In this document: positions 14,441-64,000 of the stretch, in pieces
Numbering within the stretch: the stretch's first letter is position 1
How the letters are laid out: each line of letters begins with the position of its first letter
Virus record (IMG/VR): IMGVR_UViG_3300032241_000811
Location: 45,581-109,580 of that record
DNA length: 64,000 nucleotides
DNA from: a virus
Reading direction: 5' to 3' (one strand)
Made by a program: the position numbers and the translations under genes
Notes under the pieces: generated by a model
Database searches by the model: none
Told to the model about the DNA's origin: nothing
Seen by the model: only the letters and a program-made list of their open reading frames with translations

Positions 14441-15075
14441 TATTTTATCCCAGTTGAACCCAGCCCTCCAACTCTATCGGTTTTCTGCGTGGGTTTTGTT
14501 TTTGTTTCTTCTATCGTATAGACTTCAGACTTGACAAGTTCAGCCTGAGCAATACGATCACCATTATTTATTGTAAAATCGGTTTCTGAAATGTTTGTCA
14601 GCAAAACAAAAATCTCATTCACATAGTCTGAATCAATGACGCCTTCAAGATTGGCCAAGACAATACCATTATTATATGACAGACCAGACCTTGGATGAAA
14701 GCGAACTGAGTATCCTTCTGGTATGTCAAAGAACAATCCAGTCGGCACCAAAATTCTATCACCAGGCATAATGCGTATATTACCATAATGCAATGGGCGA
14801 GAGAAAGGCGCACAATATTGGTTTATGCCCTCATATACATGCTTGCCTTCTGCTTGAAACGATAGATCAAAGCAAGCAGACTGCTTTGTAGCAAATGATG
14901 GCAGCTTGATGTTGTCGTTTATCCTATAGATTTTCAAAGAACGAGGCTTGTAGATAAGTTCCTGTAAAGGTATGTGTTTGACTTCACCAGTATATGTGAT
15001 GTTAGTATTTTTTAGGATTTCAGTTAGTTCTATTGTTTTCTTCTTTGTAGATGTCTTGATAGGTTTCTTTGCCAT
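14440..15075 (-). CDS. dut: Trimeric dUTPase
   Basis: SACFDL, PRSGL, GVIDSDY, GDRIAQ, RVGGLGSTG; start likely ATG 15075 (TAATG overlap). Confidence 0.95.
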   Translation of the reverse strand: MAKKPIKTSTKKKTIELTEILKNTNITYTGEVKHIPLQELIYKPRSLKIYRINDNIKLPSFATKQSACFDLSFQAEGKHVYEGINQYCAPFSRPLHYGNIRIMPGDRILVPTGLFFDIPEGYSVRFHPRSGLSYNNGIVLANLEGVIDSDYVNEIFVLLTNISETDFTINNGDRIAQAELVKSEVYTIEETKTKPTQKTDRVGGLGSTGIK

Positions 15076-16103
15076 TATGAAATTCCCAGCCATTCTTTGT
15101 TGTTGAGGTACCAATCACTCACTTGCTTGATGCGATTGGTAAAGGTGATCTTTGGTTGCCATCCCAGCGACTTCATCAAGTCTCCAGACAGTGCATAGCG
15201 CAAGTCATGCCCAGGACGAGATGAATGAAAGTCAACCATTTCATATTTGAGTTCCTTGCCCTGCGCCTCTGCTACCATTTTTGCAAGAGATAGATTATCA
15301 ATTTCTTCTGCACCTACGATATTAAACTTGGGAATGTATGCTCCACCAAAGTCTGGTGGTGTCTTGGGCTTGTTCTGCACCAAGAACATTACGGCATCAG
15401 CAACATCCTTTGCGTGAATGTAGAAGCGTGAGCCTGCTTTAGTCTTTGTCTTGTCAGCATGAATGGTTACAGGTTCACCCAGATGCACCTTGCGTATGCA
15501 CATTGGAATGAACTTCTCTGGTGTCTGCCGTTCGCCAAACACATTCATCGTGTGTGTAATCATAATAGGCAGCTTGTATGTATTCTCAAAAGCAACACAC
15601 ATTTCTTCACCAGCAGCTTTGGTAGCAGCATATGGATTAGAGGAGTTATATCTTGCTCTCTCATCATATCTGACACCAAGAGGTGCAGGTCCAAAGACTT
15701 CATCTGTGCTGAAATAAAGTAACGAATCTAGGTTATCAAGCTGTCTGGCATAGTTCAAGAGATTGACTGTGCCTACCACATTGTCTTGCACAAACTCCAT
15801 TGGGTTCTGAATTGATCTATCCACATGCGATCCAGCAGCAACATGCAGAATGATGTCGGGCTTGCCAATGAGGTTTGCTGTGTGGGCGTTTATTTCAGCG
15901 CGAAGGTCATGAAACACAACCTTTACTCGCTTTCTTTGTTCAGGAGAATATCCTTCAAGTATCTGACTCAGGCGATTGAGATTGCCTGAAAAGTCAAGAC
16001 GATCAAGTGTAATCACATTATAGTCGGTGGTGGCGATAATGGCATCAACAATATGATGCCCAATAAAGCCTGGTCCGCCTGTCAATAATACATTCTTTGT
16101 CAT
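15075..16103 (-). CDS. dTDP-glucose 4,6-dehydratase-like SDR
   Basis: TGGPGFIG, SHVDRSI, STDEVFG, YAATK, RPGHDLRY. Confidence 0.9.
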   Translation of the reverse strand: MTKNVLLTGGPGFIGHHIVDAIIATTDYNVITLDRLDFSGNLNRLSQILEGYSPEQRKRVKVVFHDLRAEINAHTANLIGKPDIILHVAAGSHVDRSIQNPMEFVQDNVVGTVNLLNYARQLDNLDSLLYFSTDEVFGPAPLGVRYDERARYNSSNPYAATKAAGEEMCVAFENTYKLPIMITHTMNVFGERQTPEKFIPMCIRKVHLGEPVTIHADKTKTKAGSRFYIHAKDVADAVMFLVQNKPKTPPDFGGAYIPKFNIVGAEEIDNLSLAKMVAEAQGKELKYEMVDFHSSRPGHDLRYALSGDLMKSLGWQPKITFTNRIKQVSDWYLNNKEWLGIS

Positions 16104-16606: not shown

Positions 16607-17959
16607 TTACGGTTTTACGATGTACCATAGGTCTTGTTGAGCATTTTCAATTCTCAAGCCTACGGAATCAGAAAACTTGTTAGCAGCCTTGTTGACATGC
16701 TCTAGCCGAGCAAAGCCATGACCAAACATCAATCCTCCGGACTTGAGTTTCTTCCAATAGTTAGCGCAATCTTTGAGTATCTGGTCATATTCAGAACGAC
16801 CATCAACAAAGACAAAATTGAGTGAGTTATCTTCAAACTGTACCAGAGCATCATCAGAAGATGCCTTGATGAACGTGAAGTTTTGCCGCTTTTCTGTCTT
16901 GCGCAGAAGTTCTTTATAGTGTTCTTCAACAGGCGGAACATGCCCATCATAATCCACATATGACACATAAGGATCAACACCATATAGCTTTAGATTTGTC
17001 ATGGATGACAGCAAGTGTTCTGTTGTGATACCATCTGCTGTGCCTATTTCAAGCCCTGTTATGAGTTGCTGTGTTCCCCATTTCTCTGTTACAAGTTTTG
17101 GAATATCTTGACCTGGAAGCCAACGATCAAAGCCACCCTTTGGATTGTTGATGCCACCTGGCAATCTTGAGAACCAACGATGATCAACAAACTTCTTATC
17201 ATCAATTGTCAATACGCCTGAGGGCTTGATGTTGGTGTAATACTTGTTGAGATTGACATCAGGGTGTGCTGTATACTTGCCCGTGGCGATGTCCATATGC
17301 AGACATTGCACATCTGTATTGACAAGCAGCTTGACACCGCGCTTACGGATTCTATGAACAAAGAAGTTATCTTCGCCAACGAAAGGAATGTCCTCAATAT
17401 CCTTTGCGACAACGCAGAAAGGAAGTTCAGGTTCTTCTTGCTTCATCTTGCGCAGAAGATCAACAGGGATCAACATACAATCCATACCAGTCTGCCATGC
17501 TTCAAGAATCTGCCCAGGATCGACATTAGGTACAACGATATGATTGTCCTTCTTGACAGAAATCATTGCGTGGCTGCACTTGATGTAATACACACCAGTT
17601 ACTACTGAGCCTGGATTCTCTTCTGCTGTTTTGTGAAGTATCTTGAAAGCATCATAAGGCACCACAGTATCGTCACCGATAAAGAACATATACTTTGCGT
17701 CTGAGTCATTGATGACACGCTCAATCAGGTAGTTACGCGCAACGTCAACCATCTCACCAATGACATCAATATAAGCAAAGCTATGCCCCATGACATCAAC
17801 ATGGTTCAAACCATATCCATTGAAAGTCTGTGCTGGGGTATCTTCTTTGGTTCTGCGAGGCTGAGCGATGATCACATAAGGGAATATCTGCTCTGCTTCT
17901 TTCTTGATGTCTCTCAAAGTCTGAATAATCTTTTCACGGCTATACATGGTAAAACTCAC
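16607..17959 (-). CDS. GT2-like glycosyltransferase fused to class I methyltransferase
   Basis: VARN, FIGDD, GEDNFF in N half; LEIGTADG, YGVDP, VFVDG, LKSGG in C half. Confidence 0.8.
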   Translation of the reverse strand: MSFTMYSREKIIQTLRDIKKEAEQIFPYVIIAQPRRTKEDTPAQTFNGYGLNHVDVMGHSFAYIDVIGEMVDVARNYLIERVINDSDAKYMFFIGDDTVVPYDAFKILHKTAEENPGSVVTGVYYIKCSHAMISVKKDNHIVVPNVDPGQILEAWQTGMDCMLIPVDLLRKMKQEEPELPFCVVAKDIEDIPFVGEDNFFVHRIRKRGVKLLVNTDVQCLHMDIATGKYTAHPDVNLNKYYTNIKPSGVLTIDDKKFVDHRWFSRLPGGINNPKGGFDRWLPGQDIPKLVTEKWGTQQLITGLEIGTADGITTEHLLSSMTNLKLYGVDPYVSYVDYDGHVPPVEEHYKELLRKTEKRQNFTFIKASSDDALVQFEDNSLNFVFVDGRSEYDQILKDCANYWKKLKSGGLMFGHGFARLEHVNKAANKFSDSVGLRIENAQQDLWYIVKP

Positions 17960-18413: not shown

Positions 18414-18795
18414 TATTGACGCCACCTTTATTCGTTAGTCTTTTTATTTCGTTTAGCTGGTCGTCTGAAAGGATGTTTATAGCCTCTCTGGCCTTTTCAT
18501 TGGAATAACCGAAGTATTCTTTGACAGCATTCAACCCATCAGTATCCTCCCGCTTCTGCCACTTCTGAAAAGGTCTTTTATACGACCTAATGGTATTTAG
18601 CAGATATTGGAACTGCAAAAGATTGTCGGTGTCTGGCAACTTGTTCATCTCATTGACGAGCATAACACAGTCATAATGAAACGACAAAGCACGATTGACA
18701 ACGAAAGGGTTGTAGTCCCTCTCATTGTCTTTCGTGATCACATGCTGCTTTGTTTGCAGTATAGCCGGTAAGACTTCTTTGAATATGTCAGACAT
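18370..18795 (-). CDS. 62: Clamp loader small subunit gp62
   Basis: YNPFVVNRALS, EYFGYSNEKA; synteny 44-62-regA; start likely ATG 18795. Confidence 0.92.
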   Translation of the reverse strand: MSDIFKEVLPAILQTKQHVITKDNERDYNPFVVNRALSFHYDCVMLVNEMNKLPDTDNLLQFQYLLNTIRSYKRPFQKWQKREDTDGLNAVKEYFGYSNEKAREAINILSDDQLNEIKRLTNKGGVNNAKSNRKSVGGDTR

Positions 18796-19228
18796 TATTA
18801 ACCTTTTCATCAGAAGGAAGATTTTCCAATAGATACCTTAAAGCATTTCTAACGCCTTCAATATTGTCTCCTAGATATCCTATACCAGAGTTACACTGTT
18901 TACATAACCATCCACGAAAGTATGCTTCTCCTTTAGAATCGTAGTGGTGATCAAAAGATAGATTGACGTTGCTTTGTTTTTTTCTGCCACAGCACTCACA
19001 AGCATCAGGCATTTCACGCACTGTAACGTCTAACTTCAGTGCTTTGAGTTCAGTAAAGTATTTGTTCTTACAATCGGTACATCTTGTATCTGGCCAAGTT
19101 CCTAATCTTATAGGAAACAAAGAAACAGCTTTTTCTACACCACAAAGGCTACACGTTCTTTGTGGTTCTTTTTTATTAGTTTCTATTCCCAAGAATCTTT
19201 CTAATGTTGACACTAATACCTCAGACAT
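18788..19228 (-). mobile_element. Free-standing endonuclease VII-type (His-Me finger) homing endonuclease
   Basis: CECCG, FDHHY, FRGWLCKQCNSGIG; inserted between gp44 and gp62; AT-richer. Confidence 0.8.
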
Positions 19229-20159
19229 ACTCACAATCAACCATCATCTCAGTCAGCATAGCTACAAGATTTATCTCTTGGTCAGCAACAAAAGCTGACT
19301 GGTACTGATACTTTGATATGATAACCACAGCTTGAGGAATGCTTTGCGGCTTGATGTATTCAGCAAGACTGTCATAGATTTTTCTGAATATGCTTGATGC
19401 ATCAATGTCCGAGTTTGTGGTTACCCACTTCCTCATCTCATTAAAGTTCTTATCCTTCAAGGATGAAACCAACTCAGCAAGCTTCTTCACATCAGACAAC
19501 TGAGCAACAGTGCTTGCATCAATGGTTCCAGAAACGCTGAACCGCTGCAACTCATTTATGGTTCTGCGATAGTCGGGAAAATACTTCTCAACAATCTTGG
19601 CCAGAGAAGCCTTATCATAGGTTATCTTCTCTTCTTTGAGAATAGACTGAAGCCTTTTGAATAGCTGAGTAGCCATCTCTTTCTTCTCATCGTTCTTGAG
19701 CGAGAACTCCAGAACAGTGCAACGAGAGTGTAGAGCATCAATCAGGCGAGACTTGAAGTTGCAGGTAAAGATGAATGTGCAGTTATCTGCAAACTCCTCA
19801 ATGACACCGCGCAGGCCTGCTTGAGCATCTGGTGTAAGATGGTCTGCTTCGTCTAGGATGATCACCTTCTTGCCTCCAGTAAGAGATACTGTAGAAGCAT
19901 AGCCAATGATCTTGGTGCGCAGCGTGTCAATACCACGCTCTTCCGAAGAGTTGATAAACAGATAGTTGACACCAATCTCCTCACACATGGCCAGTGCAAT
20001 GGTTGTCTTACCGACACCAGCAGAGCCAGTGAGCATGAGATTTGGAATCTCTTTTCTGTTTACATATTCTTGGAAAGGCTGCTTGAGACGCTCAGGCAGA
20101 ATACAGTCATTTACTGTTGTCGGGCGGTAACGCTCCACCCAGAGGAAGGATTTTTTCAT
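19221..20159 (-). CDS. 44: Clamp loader AAA+ subunit gp44
   Basis: WVERYRP, GSAGVGKT, ILDEAD, LHSRC. Confidence 0.97.
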   Translation of the reverse strand: MKKSFLWVERYRPTTVNDCILPERLKQPFQEYVNRKEIPNLMLTGSAGVGKTTIALAMCEEIGVNYLFINSSEERGIDTLRTKIIGYASTVSLTGGKKVIILDEADHLTPDAQAGLRGVIEEFADNCTFIFTCNFKSRLIDALHSRCTVLEFSLKNDEKKEMATQLFKRLQSILKEEKITYDKASLAKIVEKYFPDYRRTINELQRFSVSGTIDASTVAQLSDVKKLAELVSSLKDKNFNEMRKWVTTNSDIDASSIFRKIYDSLAEYIKPQSIPQAVVIISKYQYQSAFVADQEINLVAMLTEMMVDCEYV

Positions 20160-57378: not shown

Positions 57379-58116
57379 TTATGAAGCTTTCTTCCAATAC
57401 CAAGTTCCATCTTCTCGGTATTGCTTTTTACGACCAATACAAGCAAGCCTTTGTTTTTCTCTTATTTCAGGATTTGACATCACATTATTTGTCCCTAAGT
57501 ATTTTTCTTTGTTATTCAGCTTACTTGCAGATAGTTTTTGTTTAGTCTCATCACTCATAGGGCCTCTCTTGACGCCTTTGTGTGAATTGGAAATTTTTCG
57601 TTTAGTTTCCTCGCTCATAGTAAATGAAGGCTTCTTATATCCTTCTGGTCTCTTTTGACATCTTTCTATATAATCATTTTTTTCATCTTCAGATAAACTT
57701 TCCCACCATTTTTTCATCCCTTGCTTTGTAGCATCCGATGTTTTTTGTTTCAGAGTAGGATCGTTTTTATATCTTTCTTTCATAATATCTGATATTCTCT
57801 TTCTATATTCTGGTGTTGCAACTCTACCAAAAGATCCTTCGCCTCCTTCTGTTTCATTATACCCTAATGATTTTGTATTGAGAGTTTTTATCCAATACAT
57901 TTCTCTATCATTTAGAGTATTCTTATCCAGATTGCCTTCCAAAAGATATACGCGAAAAGCATCTTCACCATATTTTTTCATTGCTTTATACAAATGGGTG
58001 GATGGATTTCGTCTTGCTAATCTTTTGTGCCCTTCAAAACGGCTATCAATACTTCCTTTTGTTTTGCCTACATACTTTTTTCCGTCAATTTTGTTTTCAA
58101 TACAATAGATGTTCAT
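57379..58116 (-). mobile_element. Free-standing GIY-YIG homing endonuclease with NUMOD3 repeats (Seg-like)
   Basis: NIYCIEN...KYVG, GYNETEGGEG, MSEETKRKIS repeats; AT-rich; between gp13 and gp14. Confidence 0.9.
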
Positions 58117-58140: not shown

Positions 58141-58148
58141 TATTTATA
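58141..58148 (-). promoter_or_regulatory. T4 late promoter TATAAATA (homing endonuclease)
   Basis: Exact consensus. Confidence 0.8.
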
Positions 58149-58177: not shown

Positions 58178-58918
58178 TCAACCTAAAATGAATTGCGGCG
58201 GCGCTTCAAATTCCAGCCTTATCTGTTCTTCAAGCTTTTCAATTTCTTGTGTTGCTTCATCATAGATTTGCTGCCCATTGAGTGTGATACCACCAGGTAG
58301 CTGCATACCACCAAACTTCTTTAGGTTGTTACCCCAAACCTTCTTGATGTTAGCTGTTGTCAGTCTTTTGAGCATTCTATCATTCCATACTTTGGGGTAA
58401 TCTTCTGGATCAATGATTGTAAAAGCATCTACCACAAGATATTCGCCGGGTGATACCATACCCCAGTCCATGTCAAGAAATAGCTTGTTGGTGTGTCTGT
58501 TGAATCTGACTGGCTGATCACCAGAGAAGAGCATGTCCAAAGTACGGATATGCTGCATTGTCAGCGCATAATTGACATAAGAGACTGAGGTGAAGTCATA
58601 GAGTTCGTGCAAGCGCAACTGATAGCGCAAGTCAAACATATTGATGGTTGCGCTGGTTGTTGATACTGGCCAGATGTTATTGACGCCAATGATATTGTCT
58701 GGGATTGGTATCCAGTTGTTTGTGATGTCTGTTTGTGTTAACAGATACTTCATATAGTATCTTTCGGTACCATCAAAGTGAAACTGCTGGAAATACTGAA
58801 GAGACAGGTCAACACAGTCATCAACCTGATCATCATCCACATTGATCTGAATAACGGGTGCGCCTAGTTGTCTTAGGCACCAGTCTTTATGGTCATCTCT
58901 TGTTGCTGGGATAGTCAT
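58178..58918 (-). CDS. 13: Neck protein gp13
   Basis: LRQLGAPVIQINV, WGNNLKKF.GMQLPGG. Confidence 0.95.
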   Translation of the reverse strand: MTIPATRDDHKDWCLRQLGAPVIQINVDDDQVDDCVDLSLQYFQQFHFDGTERYYMKYLLTQTDITNNWIPIPDNIIGVNNIWPVSTTSATINMFDLRYQLRLHELYDFTSVSYVNYALTMQHIRTLDMLFSGDQPVRFNRHTNKLFLDMDWGMVSPGEYLVVDAFTIIDPEDYPKVWNDRMLKRLTTANIKKVWGNNLKKFGGMQLPGGITLNGQQIYDEATQEIEKLEEQIRLEFEAPPQFILG

Positions 58919-58961: not shown

Positions 58962-60113
58962 TTATACACCACCGCGGTTTAGAAAATTATGTAGTAAAAC
59001 ACCTTTGGGGAAAGTCAGGCCTGAGTTATTGCGAATGACTTGCCCAACAGCAGCACTATAAGGTACAAAATGAATATCACCATTGGGTGCTAGGACACCA
59101 CCAATATAAGCAATAGATGTAGTATATACCAATGAATAAGTGGATACCACACCAGAAGCAGATATCTTTTGCCCAACAGGAGCACCATAAGGTACAAAAT
59201 GAATATCACCATTGGGTGCTAGGACACCACCAATATAAGCACCTGATGTATTAGTATAAACCAATGAATATGTTGATACAACACCAGAAGCAGATATCTT
59301 TTGCCCAACAGGAGCACCATAAGGTACAAAATGGATATCACCATTGGGGGCTAGGGCACCACCATTATAAGCACCTGATGTATTAGTATATACCAAAGAA
59401 TAAGTGGATACCACACCAGCGGCGGATATCTTTTGCCCGACAGCGGCAAATAAAGGTACAAAATGAATATCTCCATTTGGTGCTAGGGCACCGCCAACAT
59501 AAGCGGATGATGCATTAGTATATACCAATGAATAAGTGGATACCACACCAGACGCAGATATCTTTTGCCCTACTGCGGCACTTCTAGGTACAAAATGGAT
59601 ATCACCATTTGGTGCTAGGACACCACCATCATAACCGTAATTGTTTACTGTGTAAACCAAAGAATATGTGGATACCACACCAGACGCAGATATCTTTTGC
59701 CCAACAGCAGCATTAAAAGGTACAAAATGGATATCACCATTGGGGGCTAGGGCACCACCAACATAAGCACCTGATGTATTAGTATAAACCACAGAATATG
59801 TGGATACCACACCAGACGCAGATATCTTTTGCCCGACAGCGGCAAATATAGGTACAAAATGATTATCTCCATTGGGTGCTAGGACACCGCCAGCATAAGC
59901 GCCTGCTGCAGTATATACCAAAGAATATGTGCTGACAATTTCATTTGTGAACAGTCGCCCAGCCTGCACACCTTCATTTAGGAACTTCTGAAAATTGGTC
60001 CAGCCAGACAAGTCAGTGCCAATGGAGTTGTTATCTCCACTTGGCATAGTTCCTTGAAACTGGTTGACGAGTTCTGCATTGAAACTTGGTGCTATTTTTC
60101 GCGGTGTTGCCAT
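58962..60113 (-). CDS. 7-blade beta-propeller repeat protein 1
   Basis: Seven GG(V/A)LAPNGD.HFVP repeats. Confidence 0.8.
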   Translation of the reverse strand: MATPRKIAPSFNAELVNQFQGTMPSGDNNSIGTDLSGWTNFQKFLNEGVQAGRLFTNEIVSTYSLVYTAAGAYAGGVLAPNGDNHFVPIFAAVGQKISASGVVSTYSVVYTNTSGAYVGGALAPNGDIHFVPFNAAVGQKISASGVVSTYSLVYTVNNYGYDGGVLAPNGDIHFVPRSAAVGQKISASGVVSTYSLVYTNASSAYVGGALAPNGDIHFVPLFAAVGQKISAAGVVSTYSLVYTNTSGAYNGGALAPNGDIHFVPYGAPVGQKISASGVVSTYSLVYTNTSGAYIGGVLAPNGDIHFVPYGAPVGQKISASGVVSTYSLVYTTSIAYIGGVLAPNGDIHFVPYSAAVGQVIRNNSGLTFPKGVLLHNFLNRGGV

Positions 60114-62200
60114 TTGTGTGTTGCCTTATTATAACTTATTTAGCCACGGTGACATAGCAATTGCTGGGGCTAAAGGATGCCCCATAGTTGAGATTTTTTG
60201 CCTAACAGCAGCACTAAAAGGTACAAAATGAATATCTCCATTTGGTGCTAGGGCACCACCAATATAAGCGCCTGATGCATTAGTATAAACCAAAGAATAA
60301 GTGGATACCACACCAGACGCAGATATCTTTTGCCCTACTGCGGCTTGGTCAGGTACAAAATGGATATCACCATTTGGTGCTAGAACACCACCAACATAAG
60401 CAAGTGCTGATGTATATACCAATGAATATGTTGATACAACACCAGAAGCAGATATCTTTTGCCCAACAGCAGCACTATAAGGTACAAAATGGATATCACC
60501 ATTGGGTGCTAGGGCACCACCATTATAAGCGCTTGATGCATTAGTATATACCAAAGAATAAGTGGATACCACACCAGACGCAGATATCTTTTGCCCAACA
60601 GCAGCATAATAAGGTACAAAATGGATATCACCATTTGGTGCTAGGACACCGCCAGCATAAGCGCCTGATGCATTAGTATAAACCACAGAATATGTGGATA
60701 CAACACCAGCAGCGGATATCTTTTGCCCTACTGCGGCACTTCTAGGTACAAAATGGATATAACCATTGGGGGCTAGGACACCGCCAACATAAGCGGATGA
60801 TGCATTAGTATATACCAATGAATATGTGGATACCACACCAGTAGCAGCGGATATCTTTTGCCCTACTGCGGCATTGGCAGGAACAAAATGGATATCACCA
60901 TTGGGGGCTAGGGCACCACCAATATAAGCGCCTGATGCATTAGTATAAACCAAAGAATAAGTGGATACCACACCAGACGCAGATATCTTTTGCCCTACTG
61001 CGGCACTTCTAGGTACAAAATGAATATCACCATTTGGTGCTAGGACACCGCCAGCATAAGCGCCTGATGCAGTATATACCAAAGAATATGTACTCGTAAT
61101 ATCTGTGCTATACAGCTTACCAGCAGAAACGCTCTTTTGCAAAAGGTTTTGGAACTTATACCAAGCAGCAAGGTCTGTGCCAACGCTGCTGTTGTTTGCA
61201 GTCGGCAATGTACCCCAGCCAGTGTTTGCTGTTTCGTTCGCCCAAATCGGTGCTATGTTATGTGTGTTTGCTGTCATGTGTTATCTTTTATTGAAATACG
61301 GTGAGCAGCAGGTGCCAATATCAAATGGGCGTGCTGGAAAGGTATTAAGTATTGCTCCACCAGAGGCAAATTGATTGAAAATATAAATGCTACCATCAGG
61401 TGCCAATAATCCAGCATAGTAATTTCCGGAACCAGAATTAGTAAAAGTATATGTGGATACCACACCAGACGCAGATATCTTTTGCCCTACTGCGGCATAG
61501 TTAGGTACAAAATGAATATCTCCATTTGGTGCTAGGACACCACCAATATAACCGTAATTGTTTATTGTGTAAACCAAAGAATATGTGGATACAACACCAG
61601 TAATAGATACCTTTTGCCCGACAGCGGCAAATGTAGGTACAAAATGAATATCTCCATTTGGCGCTAGAACACCGCCACTGTAAGCAGTAGATGTAGTATA
61701 AACCACAGAATAAGTGGATACCACACCAGCGGCGGATATCTTTTGCCCAACAGCAGCACTATAAGGTACAAAATGAATATCACCATTTGGTGCTAGGGCA
61801 CCGCCAGAATAAGCGCCTGATGCATTAGTATAAACCACAGAATATGTGGATACCACACCAGACGCAGATATCTTTTGCCCAACAGCAGCATAATAAGGTA
61901 CAAAATGGATATCACCATTTGGTGCTAGGGCACCACCATTATAAGCGCTTGATGCATTAGTATATACCAATGAATAAGTGGATACCACACCAGACGCAGA
62001 TATCTTTTGCCCGACAGCGGCAAGTGTAGGTACAAAATGAATATCTCCATTTGGCGCTAGGACACCACCATTATAAGCACCTGATGCATTAGTATATACC
62101 AATGAATAAGTGGATACCACACCAGCAGCGGATATCTTTTGCCCTACAGGAGCATTTCTCGGAACAAAATGAATATCTCCATTTGGTGCTAAGACTCCTC
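59040..62200. repeat. About 20 near-identical 126-132-bp repeat units across three genes
   Basis: Recurring GATATCTTTTGCCC and GGTACAAAATG(A/G)ATATC blocks. Confidence 0.95.
60129..61277 (-). CDS. 7-blade beta-propeller repeat protein 2
   Basis: Seven repeats of same unit. Confidence 0.8.
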   Translation of the reverse strand: MTANTHNIAPIWANETANTGWGTLPTANNSSVGTDLAAWYKFQNLLQKSVSAGKLYSTDITSTYSLVYTASGAYAGGVLAPNGDIHFVPRSAAVGQKISASGVVSTYSLVYTNASGAYIGGALAPNGDIHFVPANAAVGQKISAATGVVSTYSLVYTNASSAYVGGVLAPNGYIHFVPRSAAVGQKISAAGVVSTYSVVYTNASGAYAGGVLAPNGDIHFVPYYAAVGQKISASGVVSTYSLVYTNASSAYNGGALAPNGDIHFVPYSAAVGQKISASGVVSTYSLVYTSALAYVGGVLAPNGDIHFVPDQAAVGQKISASGVVSTYSLVYTNASGAYIGGALAPNGDIHFVPFSAAVRQKISTMGHPLAPAIAMSPWLNKL

Positions 62201-62432
62201 CAGAGTATGCTTGTGTTGATGCAACAGTATATATAAGAGTAAACGTGCTGACAACATCGGTACTAAATGTTTTACCAGCAATAACAGAGAGGCTCATTAT
62301 GTCATGTAAGCCCTGCCAAACAGAAGGGTCTGTTGCTGCGGCACCATCGTCTGCAACAGGAATGACACCGCTGAGTGTTTCATAAAGGTCTGATTGACTT
62401 TGCGCTCCAAGAAAATGTGTATTTGAAAGCAT
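61281..62432 (-). CDS. 7-blade beta-propeller repeat protein 3
   Basis: Six repeats plus a degenerate seventh (GLLAPDGSIYIF). Confidence 0.8.
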   Translation of the reverse strand: MLSNTHFLGAQSQSDLYETLSGVIPVADDGAAATDPSVWQGLHDIMSLSVIAGKTFSTDVVSTFTLIYTVASTQAYSGGVLAPNGDIHFVPRNAPVGQKISAAGVVSTYSLVYTNASGAYNGGVLAPNGDIHFVPTLAAVGQKISASGVVSTYSLVYTNASSAYNGGALAPNGDIHFVPYYAAVGQKISASGVVSTYSVVYTNASGAYSGGALAPNGDIHFVPYSAAVGQKISAAGVVSTYSVVYTTSTAYSGGVLAPNGDIHFVPTFAAVGQKVSITGVVSTYSLVYTINNYGYIGGVLAPNGDIHFVPNYAAVGQKISASGVVSTYTFTNSGSGNYYAGLLAPDGSIYIFNQFASGGAILNTFPARPFDIGTCCSPYFNKR

Positions 62433-63559
62433 TACCCGACAACCATAAGTGTATATTGATTAGTGGAAGGCGCAACCACAAACTCCAACTGAATGGTATT
62501 TGCGCTGGTGTACTTGATATCAGGATAGACAAAGTATCCTGTTGACCATTCACGAACCGCAGGCATCACAAAAGTCTTATTCAAGCTGTGTGTGACATTG
62601 AAAGCATTTGCTGATGAGTTGCCCACGTTTGCTGTAAATGATGACAAACCACCAGTAGAGATAGCAACACCATTGACGAGAACAGAAGCAGCGTTGATCG
62701 AACCGGCAACATCAAGCTTATATGTTGGGGTGTCGTTACGCCCGATAGATACATTACCTGAGTTTGGATTGACAACAAAGTTTGCTGTATTGACATTGGC
62801 TTTTGTCAGTGTGCCAGAAGTTTGTTCTGAAAAGAGAATATATCTGACTGCGTTTACAGAATCAACATAGATATTTGTGTTGGAGTAAGTTGCTACAGTA
62901 TTAGCCCAACCATTAGAGGCAGCACCTACTGATTGAGCATAAGTGTTGGAGTAACCAAATACAGTATTAGCCCAACCATTAGCAGCAGCACCTACTGTTT
63001 GAGCATATGCGTTGGCACCACCACCAACAGATGTATCTCCATTGATGTATATGGTGTTATTACCAAATACACCACTTGCTGATACAGAGACCGATCCCGT
63101 ACCTAGAATAGAAAGGCTACCATTTGGGCTGGTGTTTGTTCCTACCACATACACATTGGTATTGAGTGGTGTAGATTGAGCATATATTTTGATAAACGCT
63201 GAATTTGCATTAGCATAGGCTAGATTAGCCACACCAAAAGCAGCACCAGCATTAGATTGGGCTCCATTAGCTTGAGTGAACGCGGCACCAATGGAGACAT
63301 TCAATGATGACCCAACATTCTGAATGTAAGGAACAACATTCAAACCTGCGACTATCATGCCAGTAGATATATTGGCTTGCCCAGCTACATCTAGTTTATA
63401 ACCAGGATTACTTGTGCCAATACCAAGATTACCGTTCTGGTCAATTCTTGCGACTTCTGATCCTGCTGTAGAGACAGTCATTGTATTGCCGCCATTGGCC
63501 CTGATAACCGTTGTCCCGGTTACATCTAAATGTATATTTGCGACTTTAAGAATAGCCAT
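62432..63559 (-). CDS. Fibre-type structural protein
   Basis: GNLGIGT..P.YKLDVAG repeats, Ala/Asn coiled coil, C-terminal THSLN domain. Confidence 0.75.
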   Translation of the reverse strand: MAILKVANIHLDVTGTTVIRANGGNTMTVSTAGSEVARIDQNGNLGIGTSNPGYKLDVAGQANISTGMIVAGLNVVPYIQNVGSSLNVSIGAAFTQANGAQSNAGAAFGVANLAYANANSAFIKIYAQSTPLNTNVYVVGTNTSPNGSLSILGTGSVSVSASGVFGNNTIYINGDTSVGGGANAYAQTVGAAANGWANTVFGYSNTYAQSVGAASNGWANTVATYSNTNIYVDSVNAVRYILFSEQTSGTLTKANVNTANFVVNPNSGNVSIGRNDTPTYKLDVAGSINAASVLVNGVAISTGGLSSFTANVGNSSANAFNVTHSLNKTFVMPAVREWSTGYFVYPDIKYTSANTIQLEFVVAPSTNQYTLMVVG

Positions 63560-63584: not shown

Positions 63585-63592
63585 TATTTATA
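63585..63592 (-). promoter_or_regulatory. T4 late promoter TATAAATA
   Basis: Exact consensus upstream of fibre gene and propeller genes. Confidence 0.8.
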
Positions 63593-63601
63593 AGCGTTTC
63601 T

Positions 63602-64000
63602 TTAGAACATTATAATATTGCCTGAAATAACAATATCACCATTGGCGAGTATCTGAGCAGCAGTACCAAAAGAAGCAATATTCGTAGAAGTGGAAATATT
63701 AGTGGTATTGACACCGCCTGTTACTGTTAAAGCACCTACTAATGTTCCTGTGCTATTGGCTAAAAACTTAGTATTAGAATAACCGAATACTGTGTTTGTC
63801 CAGCCGTTTGCAGCAGCCCCTACAGTCTGTGCATAGGTATTAGAATAACCAAAAACAGTATTGGTCCAACCATTAGATGCTGCTCCAACAGTCTGTGCAT
63901 AGGTATTAGAAGCAGACCAAGCTGTGTTAATGTATCCATTTGAGGCAGCCCCTACTGTTTGGGCATATGTATTAGAATAACCAAAAACAGTATTGGTCCA
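63602..64000 (-). CDS. Fibre-type protein, 3' end (partial) with 66-bp repeats
   Basis: YAQTVGAA(S/A)NGWTNTVFGYSNT repeats; stop at 63602. Confidence 0.75.
   Translation of the reverse strand, partial: WTNTVFGYSNTYAQTVGAASNGYINTAWSASNTYAQTVGAASNGWTNTVFGYSNTYAQTVGAAANGWTNTVFGYSNTKFLANSTGTLVGALTVTGGVNTTNISTSTNIASFGTAAQILANGDIVISGNIIMF

What the first reader, a model, noticed from the sequence alone, without database searches (positions are those of the whole stretch)
58962..62432. Three-gene beta-propeller array with constant framework and shuffled hypervariable loops
Seen: three adjacent 382-383-aa genes have divergent N- and C-termini but share 20 nearly identical blades (21st degenerate). 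Amino-acid variation is concentrated in the two residues after HFVP (IF, FN, RS, LF, YG, YS, AN, YY, DQ, FS, RN, TL, TF, NY), the loop after VYT (NTSGA, NASSA, VNNYG, TSIA, SALA, TSTA...) and the residue in YxGG. Identical nucleotide cassettes recur in different genes (RS cassette at ~59568, ~60726, ~60993; YY cassette at ~60594 and ~61878; NNYG loop at ~59631 and ~61551) while synonymous variants assort in patchwork. Inference: ongoing inter-blade, inter-gene recombination homogenises the scaffold and reshuffles binding loops, an antibody-like combinatorial receptor-binding module expressed late with a fibre gene, possibly assembling as a heterotrimer.
Basis: partly seen in the sequence, partly recalled or inferred. 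Interest (0 to 1): 0.85.

Follow-up and report, generated by a model that had tools for sequence, protein, structure and literature searches.

The report
Phage propeller-gene triplet, shuffled binding loops
An uncultured T4-like phage carries three adjacent genes for seven-bladed propeller proteins whose 21 blades keep a nearly identical frame by copying DNA among themselves while a few residues on one face vary freely; this is most likely a self-diversifying host-recognition kit, and the same triplet is common in uncultured phages.

Summary
Three co-oriented genes (61281-62432, 60129-61277, 58962-60113, minus strand) each encode seven 44-aa blades. Twenty of the 21 blades are 77-96% identical in DNA among the internal blades.

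Variation sits in three places: the loop after VYT, the x of YxGG, and the two residues after HFVP.

- **Fold:** AlphaFold2 gives a closed seven-bladed propeller. Its nearest solved structure is virginiamycin B lyase, but the lyase's catalytic histidine aligns with a hypervariable column, so this is a binder rather than a lyase.
- **Concerted evolution:** identical codons occur at 0.72 of same-residue columns, against 0.34 for a codon-bias control and 0.31-0.57 against other genomes. PHI gives p<0.001.
- **Copied cassettes:** the recurrent cassettes lie in exact inter-gene tracts of 33-84 nt.
- **Ongoing conversion:** two 99.4%-identical relatives differ by templated patches.
- **Distribution:** the triplet recurs in 50 viral contigs from two phage lineages. 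In relatives it is followed at once by a glycosyltransferase-methyltransferase gene, which in this window lies 41 kb away.

Receptor binding is inferred and a heterotrimer is untested. This scan has met the same family before on other genomes (e1-3686396, e1-3441141). I class it as a new variant of a known kind.

The parts
63585..63592 (-). T4-type late-promoter-like motif TATAAATA, 26 nt upstream of the fibre gene start
   Evidence: all six window matches are on the coding strand and lie in spacers before structural genes. One search shows the sequence.
62432..63559 (-). Fibre-like gene (375 aa). Its stop overlaps the start of propeller gene 1 by 1 nt. The C-terminal ~70 aa domain is conserved in relatives.
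   Evidence: phrog_2647/8309 on residues 239-375; weak tail-fibre phrog_9942; the C-terminal domain sits directly upstream of the triplet in T4-like relatives.
61281..62432 (-).
60129..61277 (-). Propeller gene 2 (382 aa; blades B1-B7). The AlphaFold2 model has pLDDT 84.6 and shows a closed seven-bladed propeller.
58962..60113 (-). Propeller gene 3 (383 aa; blades A1-A7)
60562..60645 (-). 84-nt exact tract carrying the YY cassette, identical to 61846-61929 (gene 2 blades 4/5 = gene 1 blades 3/4)
59530..59597 (-). 68-nt exact tract carrying the RS cassette, identical to 60955-61022 (gene 3 blade 3 = gene 2 blade 1)
58178..58918 (-). gp13-type neck/head-tail adaptor gene, the downstream boundary of the module
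   Evidence: phrog_211, E 1.3e-40
16607..17959 (-). Glycosyltransferase-methyltransferase homologue (65% identical to the gene that directly follows the triplet in relatives). Here it lies 41 kb away.
   Evidence: Methyltransf_24, E 4.8e-16
15075..16103 (-). NDP-sugar 4,6-dehydratase/epimerase gene near the displaced GT-MT gene; a possible pathway partner
   Evidence: GDP_Man_Dehyd, E 7.5e-50

Best explanation
The three genes encode paralogous seven-bladed beta-propellers of the virginiamycin-B-lyase fold. They have lost the lyase's fixed active site and use that face as a variable ligand-binding surface.

**Structure (modelled, then reasoned from topology).** Each blade has four strands and runs D strand (VVSTYS), long D-A loop, A strand (xGGVL), PNGD turn, B strand (IHFVP), B-C loop (xx), C strand (VGQKI). 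The hypervariable residues are in the D-A loop, at the mouth of strand A, and in the B-C loop. By propeller topology these all lie on the same ('top') face.

**Evolutionary mechanism (shown).** The 132-nt blade units recombine with one another within and between the three genes by short-tract gene conversion. This keeps the scaffold uniform even at synonymous sites. It also moves loop cassettes into new blade contexts. The unique N- and C-terminal tails stay orthologous gene by gene.

**Function (inferred).** The proteins are made late from one transcript with the upstream fibre gene and form the host-recognition end of a fibre. The 21 blade faces would then provide a recombining repertoire of binding determinants. 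A 1:1:1 heterotrimer joined by the N-terminal amphipathic helices is possible but untested.
For: **Fold**
- Pfam Vgb_lyase hits: E 5e-17, 1e-13 and 2e-8.
- AlphaFold2: pLDDT 84.6, pTM 0.83, 7x4 strands with N-terminal velcro closure.
- Foldseek: 2qc5/2z2n, target TM 0.88-0.90, rmsd 2.4 A.

**Binding face**
- The profile alignment puts the Vgb catalytic His (H270, per the PDB 2z2p title) on the x of YxGG, and the residues after WFT on the HFVP-xx pair.
- The same columns are hypervariable in 630 blades from 42 other genomes: 2.7-3.8 bits against <0.5 bits for most scaffold columns; Spearman 0.64.
- These columns are rich in S, N, Y, A, F and R.
- dN/dS is 2.1-2.5 at the hypervariable columns against 0.09-0.16 in the scaffold.

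**Gene conversion**
- Identical-codon fraction is 0.72 within the window, 0.34 in the different-column control, and 0.31-0.57 against other genomes. Positional orthologues are no closer than non-positional blades.
- 63% of informative site pairs are incompatible. PHI p<0.0002, and <=0.001 with one site per codon.
- Cassettes lie in 33-84-nt exact inter-gene tracts.
- Ser at the second HFVP position is AGT in 7 of 7 blades, whereas scaffold Ser codons are mostly TCN.
- L002 and L003 are 99.4% identical overall. In the array they differ by clustered patches (5 of 6 nt; 9 of 14 nt), and each allele has a 32-70-nt exact donor in another blade.

**Function and context**
- The module lies between fibre genes and gp13-14-15, with a late-promoter motif and tight gene spacing.
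- Exactly three 7-blade genes occur in 50 related viral loci, with gene-by-gene orthology of the tails.
- In L005 vs L007 the middle propeller gene is about 20% diverged while flanks are 1-2%.
- In a second phage lineage each paralogue carries an N-terminal domain. The ESM Atlas also finds that domain on viral proteins ending in YadA_head, Peptidase_S74 or Gly_rich_2.
- The propeller is nearly always the C-terminal domain of proteins of 370-2700 aa.
- Cylindrospermopsis phage Cr-LKS4 has it at the end of a 1130-aa protein beside a virion structural protein.
- The best viral structural match is a collagen-repeat protein with this propeller.
- The family is essentially absent from cellular genomes.
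Against: - There is no direct evidence that the proteins are in the virion or bind a host.
- PHROGs has no functional family for them.
- The position just upstream of gp13 is that of T4 wac (neck whiskers), not of the long tail fibres.
- The upstream fibre's conserved C-terminal domain matches a PHROG labelled 'head decoration'.
- The hypervariable columns were chosen after seeing the data. This is mitigated by their agreement with other genomes.
- The contig is a short-read metagenome assembly. Exact repeats reach 98 nt, so some blade joins, and the L002/L003 patches, could be assembly chimeras.
- The strict linkage to a glycosyltransferase-methyltransferase in relatives is not explained by a simple receptor-binding model.
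Confidence: 0.6

Rival explanations
1. The propellers decorate the neck, collar or head. They would act as whisker-like accessory adhesins or environmental sensors (the functional slot of T4 wac/Hoc), not as the primary receptor-binding proteins of the baseplate. The gene-conversion mechanism would be unchanged.
For: - The module sits directly upstream of gp13-gp14-gp15, where T4 has wac.
- The upstream fibre's C-terminal domain hits phrog_2647 'head decoration' (E 1e-10).
- The window's proteins lack the N-terminal anchor domain seen in the second phage lineage.
Against: - The PHROG label probably reflects a generic Ig-like domain.
- Gene order in distant T4-like phages puts many fibre genes in this region.
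- The very high divergence between near-identical phages is more typical of primary host-range determinants.
- In the second lineage the genes lie among tail-fibre and tail-collar genes.
Confidence: 0.2
2. The propellers are enzymes (lyase, lactonase or depolymerase type, like Vgb) that degrade a host surface polymer or small molecule. On this view the loop variation tunes substrate specificity.
For: - Sequence and fold homology to virginiamycin B lyase.
- Phage propellers occur in endosialidases (PMC4901313, discussion).
Against: - No conserved catalytic constellation exists. The columns that align with the Vgb His/Glu residues are the most variable in the family, differing in every blade and genome.
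- The only invariant residues are scaffold Gly, Pro, Asn and Gln.
- An enzyme has one active site per propeller, not seven equivalent variable patches.
Confidence: 0.07
3. There is no ongoing conversion. Blade similarity would reflect purifying selection plus codon bias, or a single recent amplification. The mosaic, and the patch differences between relatives, would be short-read assembly artefacts.
For: - The scaffold is almost as conserved between genomes as within them at the protein level (0.64-0.75 vs 0.78).
- Exact repeats of up to 98 nt could confuse de Bruijn assembly.
- No reads were available to check.
Against: - Same-column codon identity of 0.72 against 0.34 in the codon-bias control is not explained by selection on protein.
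- The 3x7 layout with orthologous tails is older than the split between genomes, yet paralogous blades are closer at synonymous sites than positional orthologues are.
- The same signal appears in 43 independently assembled loci.
- All arrays keep intact reading frames with exactly seven blades.
- An assembly chimera would need two precise in-frame jumps for each patch.
Confidence: 0.08
4. The hypervariability is produced by a diversity-generating retroelement (DGR) or another dedicated mutator.
For: DGRs are the known hypermutation system for phage receptor-binding proteins (PMC10743442).
Against: - There is no reverse transcriptase (PF00078) in the 109.6-kb record, though the record is only 63% complete.
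- All three codon positions and all four bases vary at the hypervariable codons, rather than adenine-templated sites only.
- The variable sites recur in 21 units rather than in one C-terminal variable region.
- The variants have exact donors in other blades.
Confidence: 0.02

Closest known systems
Virginiamycin/streptogramin B lyase (Vgb; Pfam PF24684; PDB 2z2n, 2z2p, 2qc5)
   Same: Homologous seven-bladed propeller. The per-blade motif is shared: GD-x-WFTE...G-x-x-x-EY in Vgb against GDIHFVP...GVVSTYS here. Target TM is 0.88-0.90.
   Different: Vgb has divergent blades and one fixed Mg-dependent active site. Here the blades are near-identical, and the columns equivalent to the catalytic His/Glu are hypervariable. 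The proteins are phage-encoded, occur in threes and have extra N- and C-terminal tails.
WD40 repeats of the Podospora anserina het-d/het-e/NWD NLR gene family (Paoletti, Saupe and Clave 2007, PMC1805685; PMC12222747)
   Same: Propeller repeats evolve in concert within and between paralogous genes. Repeats are exchanged between loci. A few positions per repeat on the interaction face are under diversifying selection. This is the same evolutionary device.
   Different: The fungal case involves intracellular immune receptors, an unrelated WD40 sequence family, variable repeat number and a contribution from RIP. Here the carrier is a lytic-type phage, the repeat number is fixed at seven, the genes form a tandem triplet, and the likely driver is phage recombination.
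gp38 adhesins of T2/T6-type phages (Trojet et al. 2011, PMC3157838)
   Same: A host-specificity module of the T4 superfamily, built from hypervariable segments separated by conserved motifs, with interchangeable specificity determinants.
   Different: gp38 is a small monomeric polyglycine-sandwich protein with four segments. It exchanges between phages, not among 21 internal repeats, and it is not a propeller.
Phage receptor-binding proteins with propeller domains: phi11 Gp45 (five-bladed), PRD1 P2, phiKZ gp131C (seven-bladed) (PMC4901313)
   Same: A propeller serves as the distal, ligand-facing domain of a virion fibre or baseplate protein. In phi11 three propellers sit around a triple-helical stalk.
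   Different: Those are homotrimers of a single gene with divergent blades. They show no concerted evolution and no sequence relationship to this family.
Diversity-generating retroelement targets (Mtd, tentaclins; PMC10743442)
   Same: They achieve targeted diversification of a phage ligand-binding surface on a constant scaffold.
   Different: DGRs use a reverse transcriptase and adenine-specific mutagenesis of one variable region. No reverse transcriptase was found here, and the variants are copied from sister blades.
Collagen-repeat plus propeller proteins of giant viruses (Hokovirus A0A1V0SG21)
   Same: It is the best viral structural match (TMq 0.78, 23% identity). An obligate-trimer stalk carries this type of propeller.
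   Different: It is a single fused gene in a eukaryotic virus, and nothing is known about blade homogenisation there.

Membership tests
Vgb_lyase beta-propeller family (PF24684) | Pfam profile score at or above the gathering cut-off (50 bits) | tested here: met
   Gene 3 scores 62.0 bits and gene 2 scores 50.9 bits. Gene 1 scores 33.8 bits, below the cut-off, but it is clearly paralogous.
Vgb_lyase beta-propeller family (PF24684) | Seven-bladed propeller fold superposable on Vgb | tested here: met
   AlphaFold2 model with pLDDT 84.6. Foldseek hits 2qc5/2z2n with E 7e-19, target TM 0.88-0.90 and rmsd 2.4 A.
Vgb_lyase beta-propeller family (PF24684) | Conserved catalytic residues (His270, with Glu268/His228; the residue numbers other than H270 are recalled from memory) | tested here: not met
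   H270 aligns with the x of YxGG. That is the most variable column of the family, at 3.76 bits with 18 residue types. The proteins are fold members but not lyases.
Phage receptor-binding / tail-fibre distal domain | Encoded in the late structural (fibre/tail) gene block | tested here: met
   The genes lie between fibre-like genes and gp13-14-15, with TATAAATA upstream and tight spacing. In the second lineage they lie among tail-collar and tail-fibre genes.
Phage receptor-binding / tail-fibre distal domain | C-terminal position on modular proteins with exchangeable N-terminal anchors | tested here: met
   The propeller is C-terminal in proteins of 370-2700 aa. The anchor domain is shared with proteins ending in YadA_head, Peptidase_S74 or Gly_rich_2; this is an ESM Atlas lead only.
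Phage receptor-binding / tail-fibre distal domain | Presence in the virion and binding to a host surface receptor | not testable with these tools
   There is no cultured host or phage. Cr-LKS4 g13 is annotated only as hypothetical.
Concertedly evolving propeller repeats with diversifying selection (fungal HNWD type) | Paralogous repeats are closer to each other within a genome than to positional orthologues elsewhere | tested here: met
   Synonymous-codon identity is 0.72 within the window against 0.31-0.57 between genomes. Positional orthologues are equal to non-positional blades. The control is 0.34.
Concertedly evolving propeller repeats with diversifying selection (fungal HNWD type) | Exchange of repeats between different genes of the family | tested here: met
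   Exact tracts of 84 nt and 68 nt link genes 1-2 and 2-3. PHI p<0.001.
Concertedly evolving propeller repeats with diversifying selection (fungal HNWD type) | A few positions per repeat under diversifying selection, grouped on the interaction face | tested here: met
   dN/dS is 2.1-2.5 at seven columns against 0.09-0.16 in the scaffold. The same columns are hypervariable family-wide. The face assignment comes from topology and the Vgb alignment, not from coordinates.
Concertedly evolving propeller repeats with diversifying selection (fungal HNWD type) | Variable repeat number between alleles | tested here: not met
   Seven blades per gene occur in 50 loci. The only exceptions are 13-14-blade genes and split 5+3 forms in a few loci.
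Diversity-generating retroelement target | Cognate reverse transcriptase and adenine-directed template repeat | tested here: not met
   There is no PF00078 match in the 109.6-kb record, which is 63% complete. Variation is not restricted to adenines.

The most novel reading that the evidence does not exclude
The three paralogues assemble 1:1:1 through their N-terminal helices into a three-propeller head on a fibre. The head is modified by the family's dedicated glycosyltransferase-methyltransferase. It works as a germline-encoded, self-diversifying receptor-binding repertoire: the phage's own recombination machinery keeps re-dealing about 21 x 3 loop cassettes among blades. Host range would then shift at rates far above point mutation and without a dedicated mutator. 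That would be a third route to phage receptor-binding diversity, alongside DGRs and invertible tail-fibre segments.
Probability: 0.25. Interest if true: 0.85.

Novelty: new variant of a known kind. Interest (0 to 1): 0.68.

Why it matters
Known phage routes to host-range diversity are point mutation, swapping of fibre modules between phages, DGRs and invertible segments. This family suggests another route: an internal library of near-identical propeller blades that exchange short DNA patches. The scaffold stays constant while binding determinants are recombined.

- **Scale.** The family is large (197 clusters at 50% identity with E<=1e-30), phage-specific and present in at least two phage lineages. 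It is absent from cultured model phages apart from distant fusions in two Cylindrospermopsis phages.
- **Parallel.** It matches the fungal NLR WD40 repeats, which points to a general solution for fast-evolving recognition surfaces.
- **Open question.** The invariant pairing with a glycosyltransferase-methyltransferase hints at virion glycosylation or glycan chemistry that has not been studied.
- **Practical use.** The near-perfect sevenfold scaffold with defined variable positions is a natural template for binder engineering.

Tried and rejected
Context came from the search for related loci instead.
- **DGR** rejected: no reverse transcriptase, and variation is not adenine-specific.
- **Cyanophage origin** not supported: no psbA in the record. 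The host stays unknown.
- **Lyase function** rejected: the catalytic columns are hypervariable.
- **Codon bias as the cause of DNA-level uniformity** rejected by the different-column control.
- **Within-codon linkage as the cause of the PHI signal** rejected by using one site per codon.
- **Cellular origin or prophage** not supported: only six hits in 185,579 species genomes. Four are close relatives on contigs of MAGs assigned to unrelated phyla, three of them contigs under 2.5 kb, and two are weak matches at 25-27% identity.
- **Annotation of the second lineage's N-terminal anchor and of the Cr-LKS4 giant protein**: PHROGs and Pfam gave nothing.
- **Literature**: searches found no description of this phage family. 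The Vgb structure papers are not in the library, so residue roles other than H270 are recalled from memory.
- **Heteromer test**: no multimer prediction tool was available.
- **Compositional break**: none across the array.


Full report
**Setting.** The window is the last 64 kb of a 109.6-kb IMG/VR viral record, estimated 63% complete. All genes are on the minus strand. Pfam and PHROGs identify a distant T4-like myovirus. In transcription order the region reads: a fibre-like gene with 22-aa repeats cut by the contig end (63602-64000); a 375-aa fibre-like gene (62432-63559); the three genes of the finding; gp13 (58178-58918); a GIY-YIG homing endonuclease; gp14; gp15; and a gp9/10-like protein. 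T4-type core proteins are only 30-45% identical to those of cultured cyanophages, pelagiphages and Methylophilales phages. No psbA was found, and the host is unknown.

**The observation.** It holds.
- The genes encode 383, 382 and 383 aa. Tandem Repeats Finder reports a 132-nt period.
- Anchoring on the STY motif gives 7 + 7 + 7 blades of 43-45 aa.
- Internal blades are 77-96% identical in DNA. The first blade of gene 1 is 64-75% identical and its last blade 51-58%.
- Amino-acid variation is concentrated in the loop after VYT, the x of YxGG and the two residues after HFVP, plus a V/A dimorphism in strand A.
- The recurrent cassettes are real, about 12 nt from the quoted positions.

**What the proteins are.**
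- All three hit Pfam Vgb_lyase, two of them above the gathering cut-off.
- An AlphaFold2 model of the middle gene, built on a 50-sequence alignment, has pLDDT 84.6 and pTM 0.83. It shows 28 strands arranged as a closed seven-bladed propeller. The first strand completes the last blade. The model also has two N-terminal helices of lower confidence and a short C-terminal tail.
- The best solved matches are streptogramin/virginiamycin B lyase (E 7e-19, target TM 0.88-0.90, rmsd 2.4 A). These are followed by highly symmetric propellers such as PknD, the designed Pizza proteins and 2ymu.
- In each repeat the long connection (LVYT-loop-AY) must be the D-to-A crossover. The two hypervariable stretches are therefore the D-A loop with the mouth of strand A, and the B-C loop. 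By standard propeller topology both lie on the same face. The conserved PNGD and SASG turns lie on the other face.
- A profile alignment to Vgb puts its catalytic histidine on the x of YxGG, and the residues after WFT on the HFVP-xx pair. H270 is named as catalytic in the title of PDB 2z2p. The variable face is thus the face Vgb uses for its substrate, but no catalytic residue is conserved.
- I conclude that this is a binding propeller, not a lyase.

**A family, not a one-off.**
- A word-indexed search found more than 1,230 relatives. An exhaustive HMMER search found 197 clusters at 50% identity with E<=1e-30 and 1,091 with E<=1e-10. The propeller is almost always at the C-terminus of proteins of 370-2700 aa.
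- Scanning IMG/VR gave 149 relatives in 76 loci. In 50 of these loci there are exactly three tandem genes of seven blades each.
- Two groups exist. One is T4-like phages with ~380-aa proteins, the conserved C-terminal domain of a fibre gene directly upstream, and gp13-14-15 1-6 kb downstream. The other is phages on contigs of about 63 kb, with ~460-aa proteins carrying an extra N-terminal domain and tail-collar and tail-fibre genes nearby.
- The ESM Atlas finds that N-terminal domain on viral proteins ending in YadA_head, Peptidase_S74 or Gly_rich_2 domains. That is the pattern of a shared fibre anchor with exchangeable tips. It is a lead, not a proof.
- Among cultured phages, only two Cylindrospermopsis phages have a relative (37-40% identity). 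In Cr-LKS4 it is the C-terminal end of a 1130-aa protein beside a virion structural protein.
- The best viral structural match is a giant-virus collagen-repeat protein carrying this propeller.
- In 185,579 species genomes there are only six hits. Four are close relatives on contigs of MAGs assigned to unrelated phyla, three of them contigs under 2.5 kb, and two are weak matches at 25-27% identity. The family is therefore phage-specific.

**Concerted evolution.**
- At the protein level the blade consensus is nearly the same in all genomes. Mean blade identity within a genome is 0.61-0.81, with the window at 0.78. The window against other genomes gives 0.64-0.75. Positional orthologues are no closer than any other pair.
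- The informative signal is at synonymous sites. For columns where two blades share the same residue, the fraction with the identical codon is 0.72 within the window. It is 0.31-0.57 against other genomes, again with no advantage for positional orthologues.
- The codon-bias control compares the same residue in a different column of the same genome and gives 0.34.
- Examples: the Gly of VGQ is GGG in 19 of 19 blades, while the second Gly of GG is GGT in 19 of 20. Ser after HFVP-x is always AGT, while scaffold Ser codons are mostly TCN.
- The N- and C-terminal tails do keep gene-by-gene orthology across T4-like relatives. Gene 1 ends ...ARP-x-D-x-GTC-x-SPY[FL]NK, gene 2 ends ...ISTM...SPWLNK, and gene 3 ends ...IRNNSG-x-TFPKG. 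The triplet is therefore older than the divergence of these phages.
- Paralogous blades that are closer at silent sites than orthologous blades are the classical signature of concerted evolution. The effect is present family-wide (mean 0.52 against 0.36) and is strongest in this window.

**Recombination and cassette movement.**
- Of 47 informative sites, 63% of pairs are incompatible with a single tree. The PHI statistic lies below all 5000 site permutations. With one site per codon, p<=0.001.
- Recurrent cassettes lie in exact tracts shared between genes: YY in 84 nt (60562-60645 = 61846-61929), RS in 68 nt (59530-59597 = 60955-61022), and YG in 53 nt.
- The same first loop occurs with different second loops and the reverse also holds. 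For example NASG/NASS and YY/YS occur in all four combinations.
- Direct evidence that this is ongoing comes from relatives. L002 and L003 are 99.4% identical over 10.2 kb. Inside the array they differ by tight clusters: NS to AQ after HFVP (5 of 6 nt) and KID to KISP (9 of 14 nt). Both alleles have exact 32-70-nt donors in other blades of the same array.
- L005 and L007 are 1-2% diverged in the flanks but about 20% diverged in the middle propeller gene, as expected for a host-range determinant.
- There is no reverse transcriptase in the record, and the variable codons change at all positions and to all bases. A DGR is therefore not the source.

**Selection.**
- By Nei-Gojobori counting, the seven hypervariable columns have dN 0.83-0.86 against a scaffold dS of 0.36-0.43, giving a ratio of 2.1-2.5. 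The scaffold ratio is 0.09-0.16.
- The columns were picked after seeing the data. However, the same columns carry 2.7-3.8 bits of entropy in 630 internal blades of 42 other genomes, where most scaffold columns carry less than 0.5 bits. The Spearman correlation with the window is 0.64.
- These columns are rich in Ser, Asn, Tyr, Ala, Phe and Arg and poor in Lys, Glu and Cys. That composition is typical of binding sites.

**Expression.**
- A TATAAATA motif lies 26 nt upstream of the fibre gene's ATG (63585-63592). All six matches in the window are on the coding strand, in spacers before structural genes.
- The fibre stop overlaps the first propeller start by 1 nt. The next gaps are 3, 15 and 43 nt.
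- One late transcript covering the fibre, the three propellers and gp13 is the simplest reading. This is inferred.

**A conserved partner gene.**
- In 61 of 61 related loci with enough downstream sequence, a ~450-aa glycosyltransferase-methyltransferase gene starts 3-75 nt after the third propeller gene. This holds in both phage groups.
- In this window the homologue (65% identity) is displaced to 16607-17959. It lies next to regA and close to an NDP-sugar 4,6-dehydratase/epimerase gene.
- The linkage suggests either that the propellers are glycosylated or that the module acts on glycans. I could not test either idea.

**Caveats.**
- Function and location in the virion are inferred.
- The position upstream of gp13 is that of T4 wac, so a neck or whisker role is a real rival.
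- The heterotrimer idea fits a conserved count of three tightly spaced, position-orthologous genes and short amphipathic N-terminal helices. It also fits the phi11 precedent of three propellers around a helical stalk (PMC4901313). No multimer tool was available to test it.
- The contigs are short-read assemblies with exact repeats of up to 98 nt. Chimeric joins cannot be excluded without reads. Against that, 50 independent loci keep intact 3x7 architectures.

**Comparison with what is known.**
- The fold family is Vgb lyase, but the catalytic test fails.
- The evolutionary device matches the WD40 repeats of the Podospora het-d/het-e/NWD genes: concerted evolution within and between loci, with diversifying selection on a few residues of the interaction face (PMC1805685). 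The differences here are a fixed repeat number and a phage carrier.
- Within phages, the nearest concept is the gp38 adhesin, with hypervariable segments between conserved motifs (PMC3157838).
- Library searches found no description of this phage family.
- The scan has met the same triplet on other genomes, and two follow-up agents reached similar readings. I saw those notes only after my own analysis, and they agree with it.

Noticed in passing
window 16607-17959 (-) and 15075-16103 (-); L001:11654-12982; L053:11100-12467: A glycosyltransferase-methyltransferase fusion gene follows the propeller triplet within 3-75 nt in 61 of 61 related loci. In this window its 65%-identical homologue lies 41 kb away, beside regA and near an NDP-sugar 4,6-dehydratase. 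This suggests glycosylation of the propellers, or joint glycan chemistry.
   Followed up: partly
window 57379-58116 (-), with TATAAATA at 58141-58148: A GIY-YIG/NUMOD3 homing endonuclease is inserted between gp13 and gp14. It has its own late-promoter-like motif. It is absent from this position in most relatives.
   Followed up: no
window 63602-64000 (-): A second fibre-like gene with 22-aa (66-nt) repeats (NTYAQTVGAASNGWTNTVFGYS) runs off the contig end. The assembly probably broke in this repeat.
   Followed up: no
L064/L066:326-9667; L038, L040, L069 third gene: Some relatives carry 13-14-blade (double-propeller) genes of 773-1068 aa upstream of a normal 7-blade gene. Others have the third gene split into 5-blade and 3-blade ORFs. 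Events that change blade copy number therefore do occur.
   Followed up: no
window 58962-59010, 60129-60170, 61281-61320 (C-terminal tails): All three proteins, and the family at large, end in a conserved tail motif [SH][PS][WYF][FL]NK[FLYR], often preceded by Cys. Its role is unknown; it could be a plug, a trimer contact or an attachment site.
   Followed up: no
L005:10060-11060 vs L007: Between two phages that are 1-2% diverged in their flanks, the middle propeller gene is about 20% diverged. This suggests whole-gene replacement on top of the blade-level patches.
   Followed up: partly
window 18788-19240 (-): An endonuclease VII-like ORF sits between the clamp-loader genes and regA. It was not examined further.
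   Followed up: no
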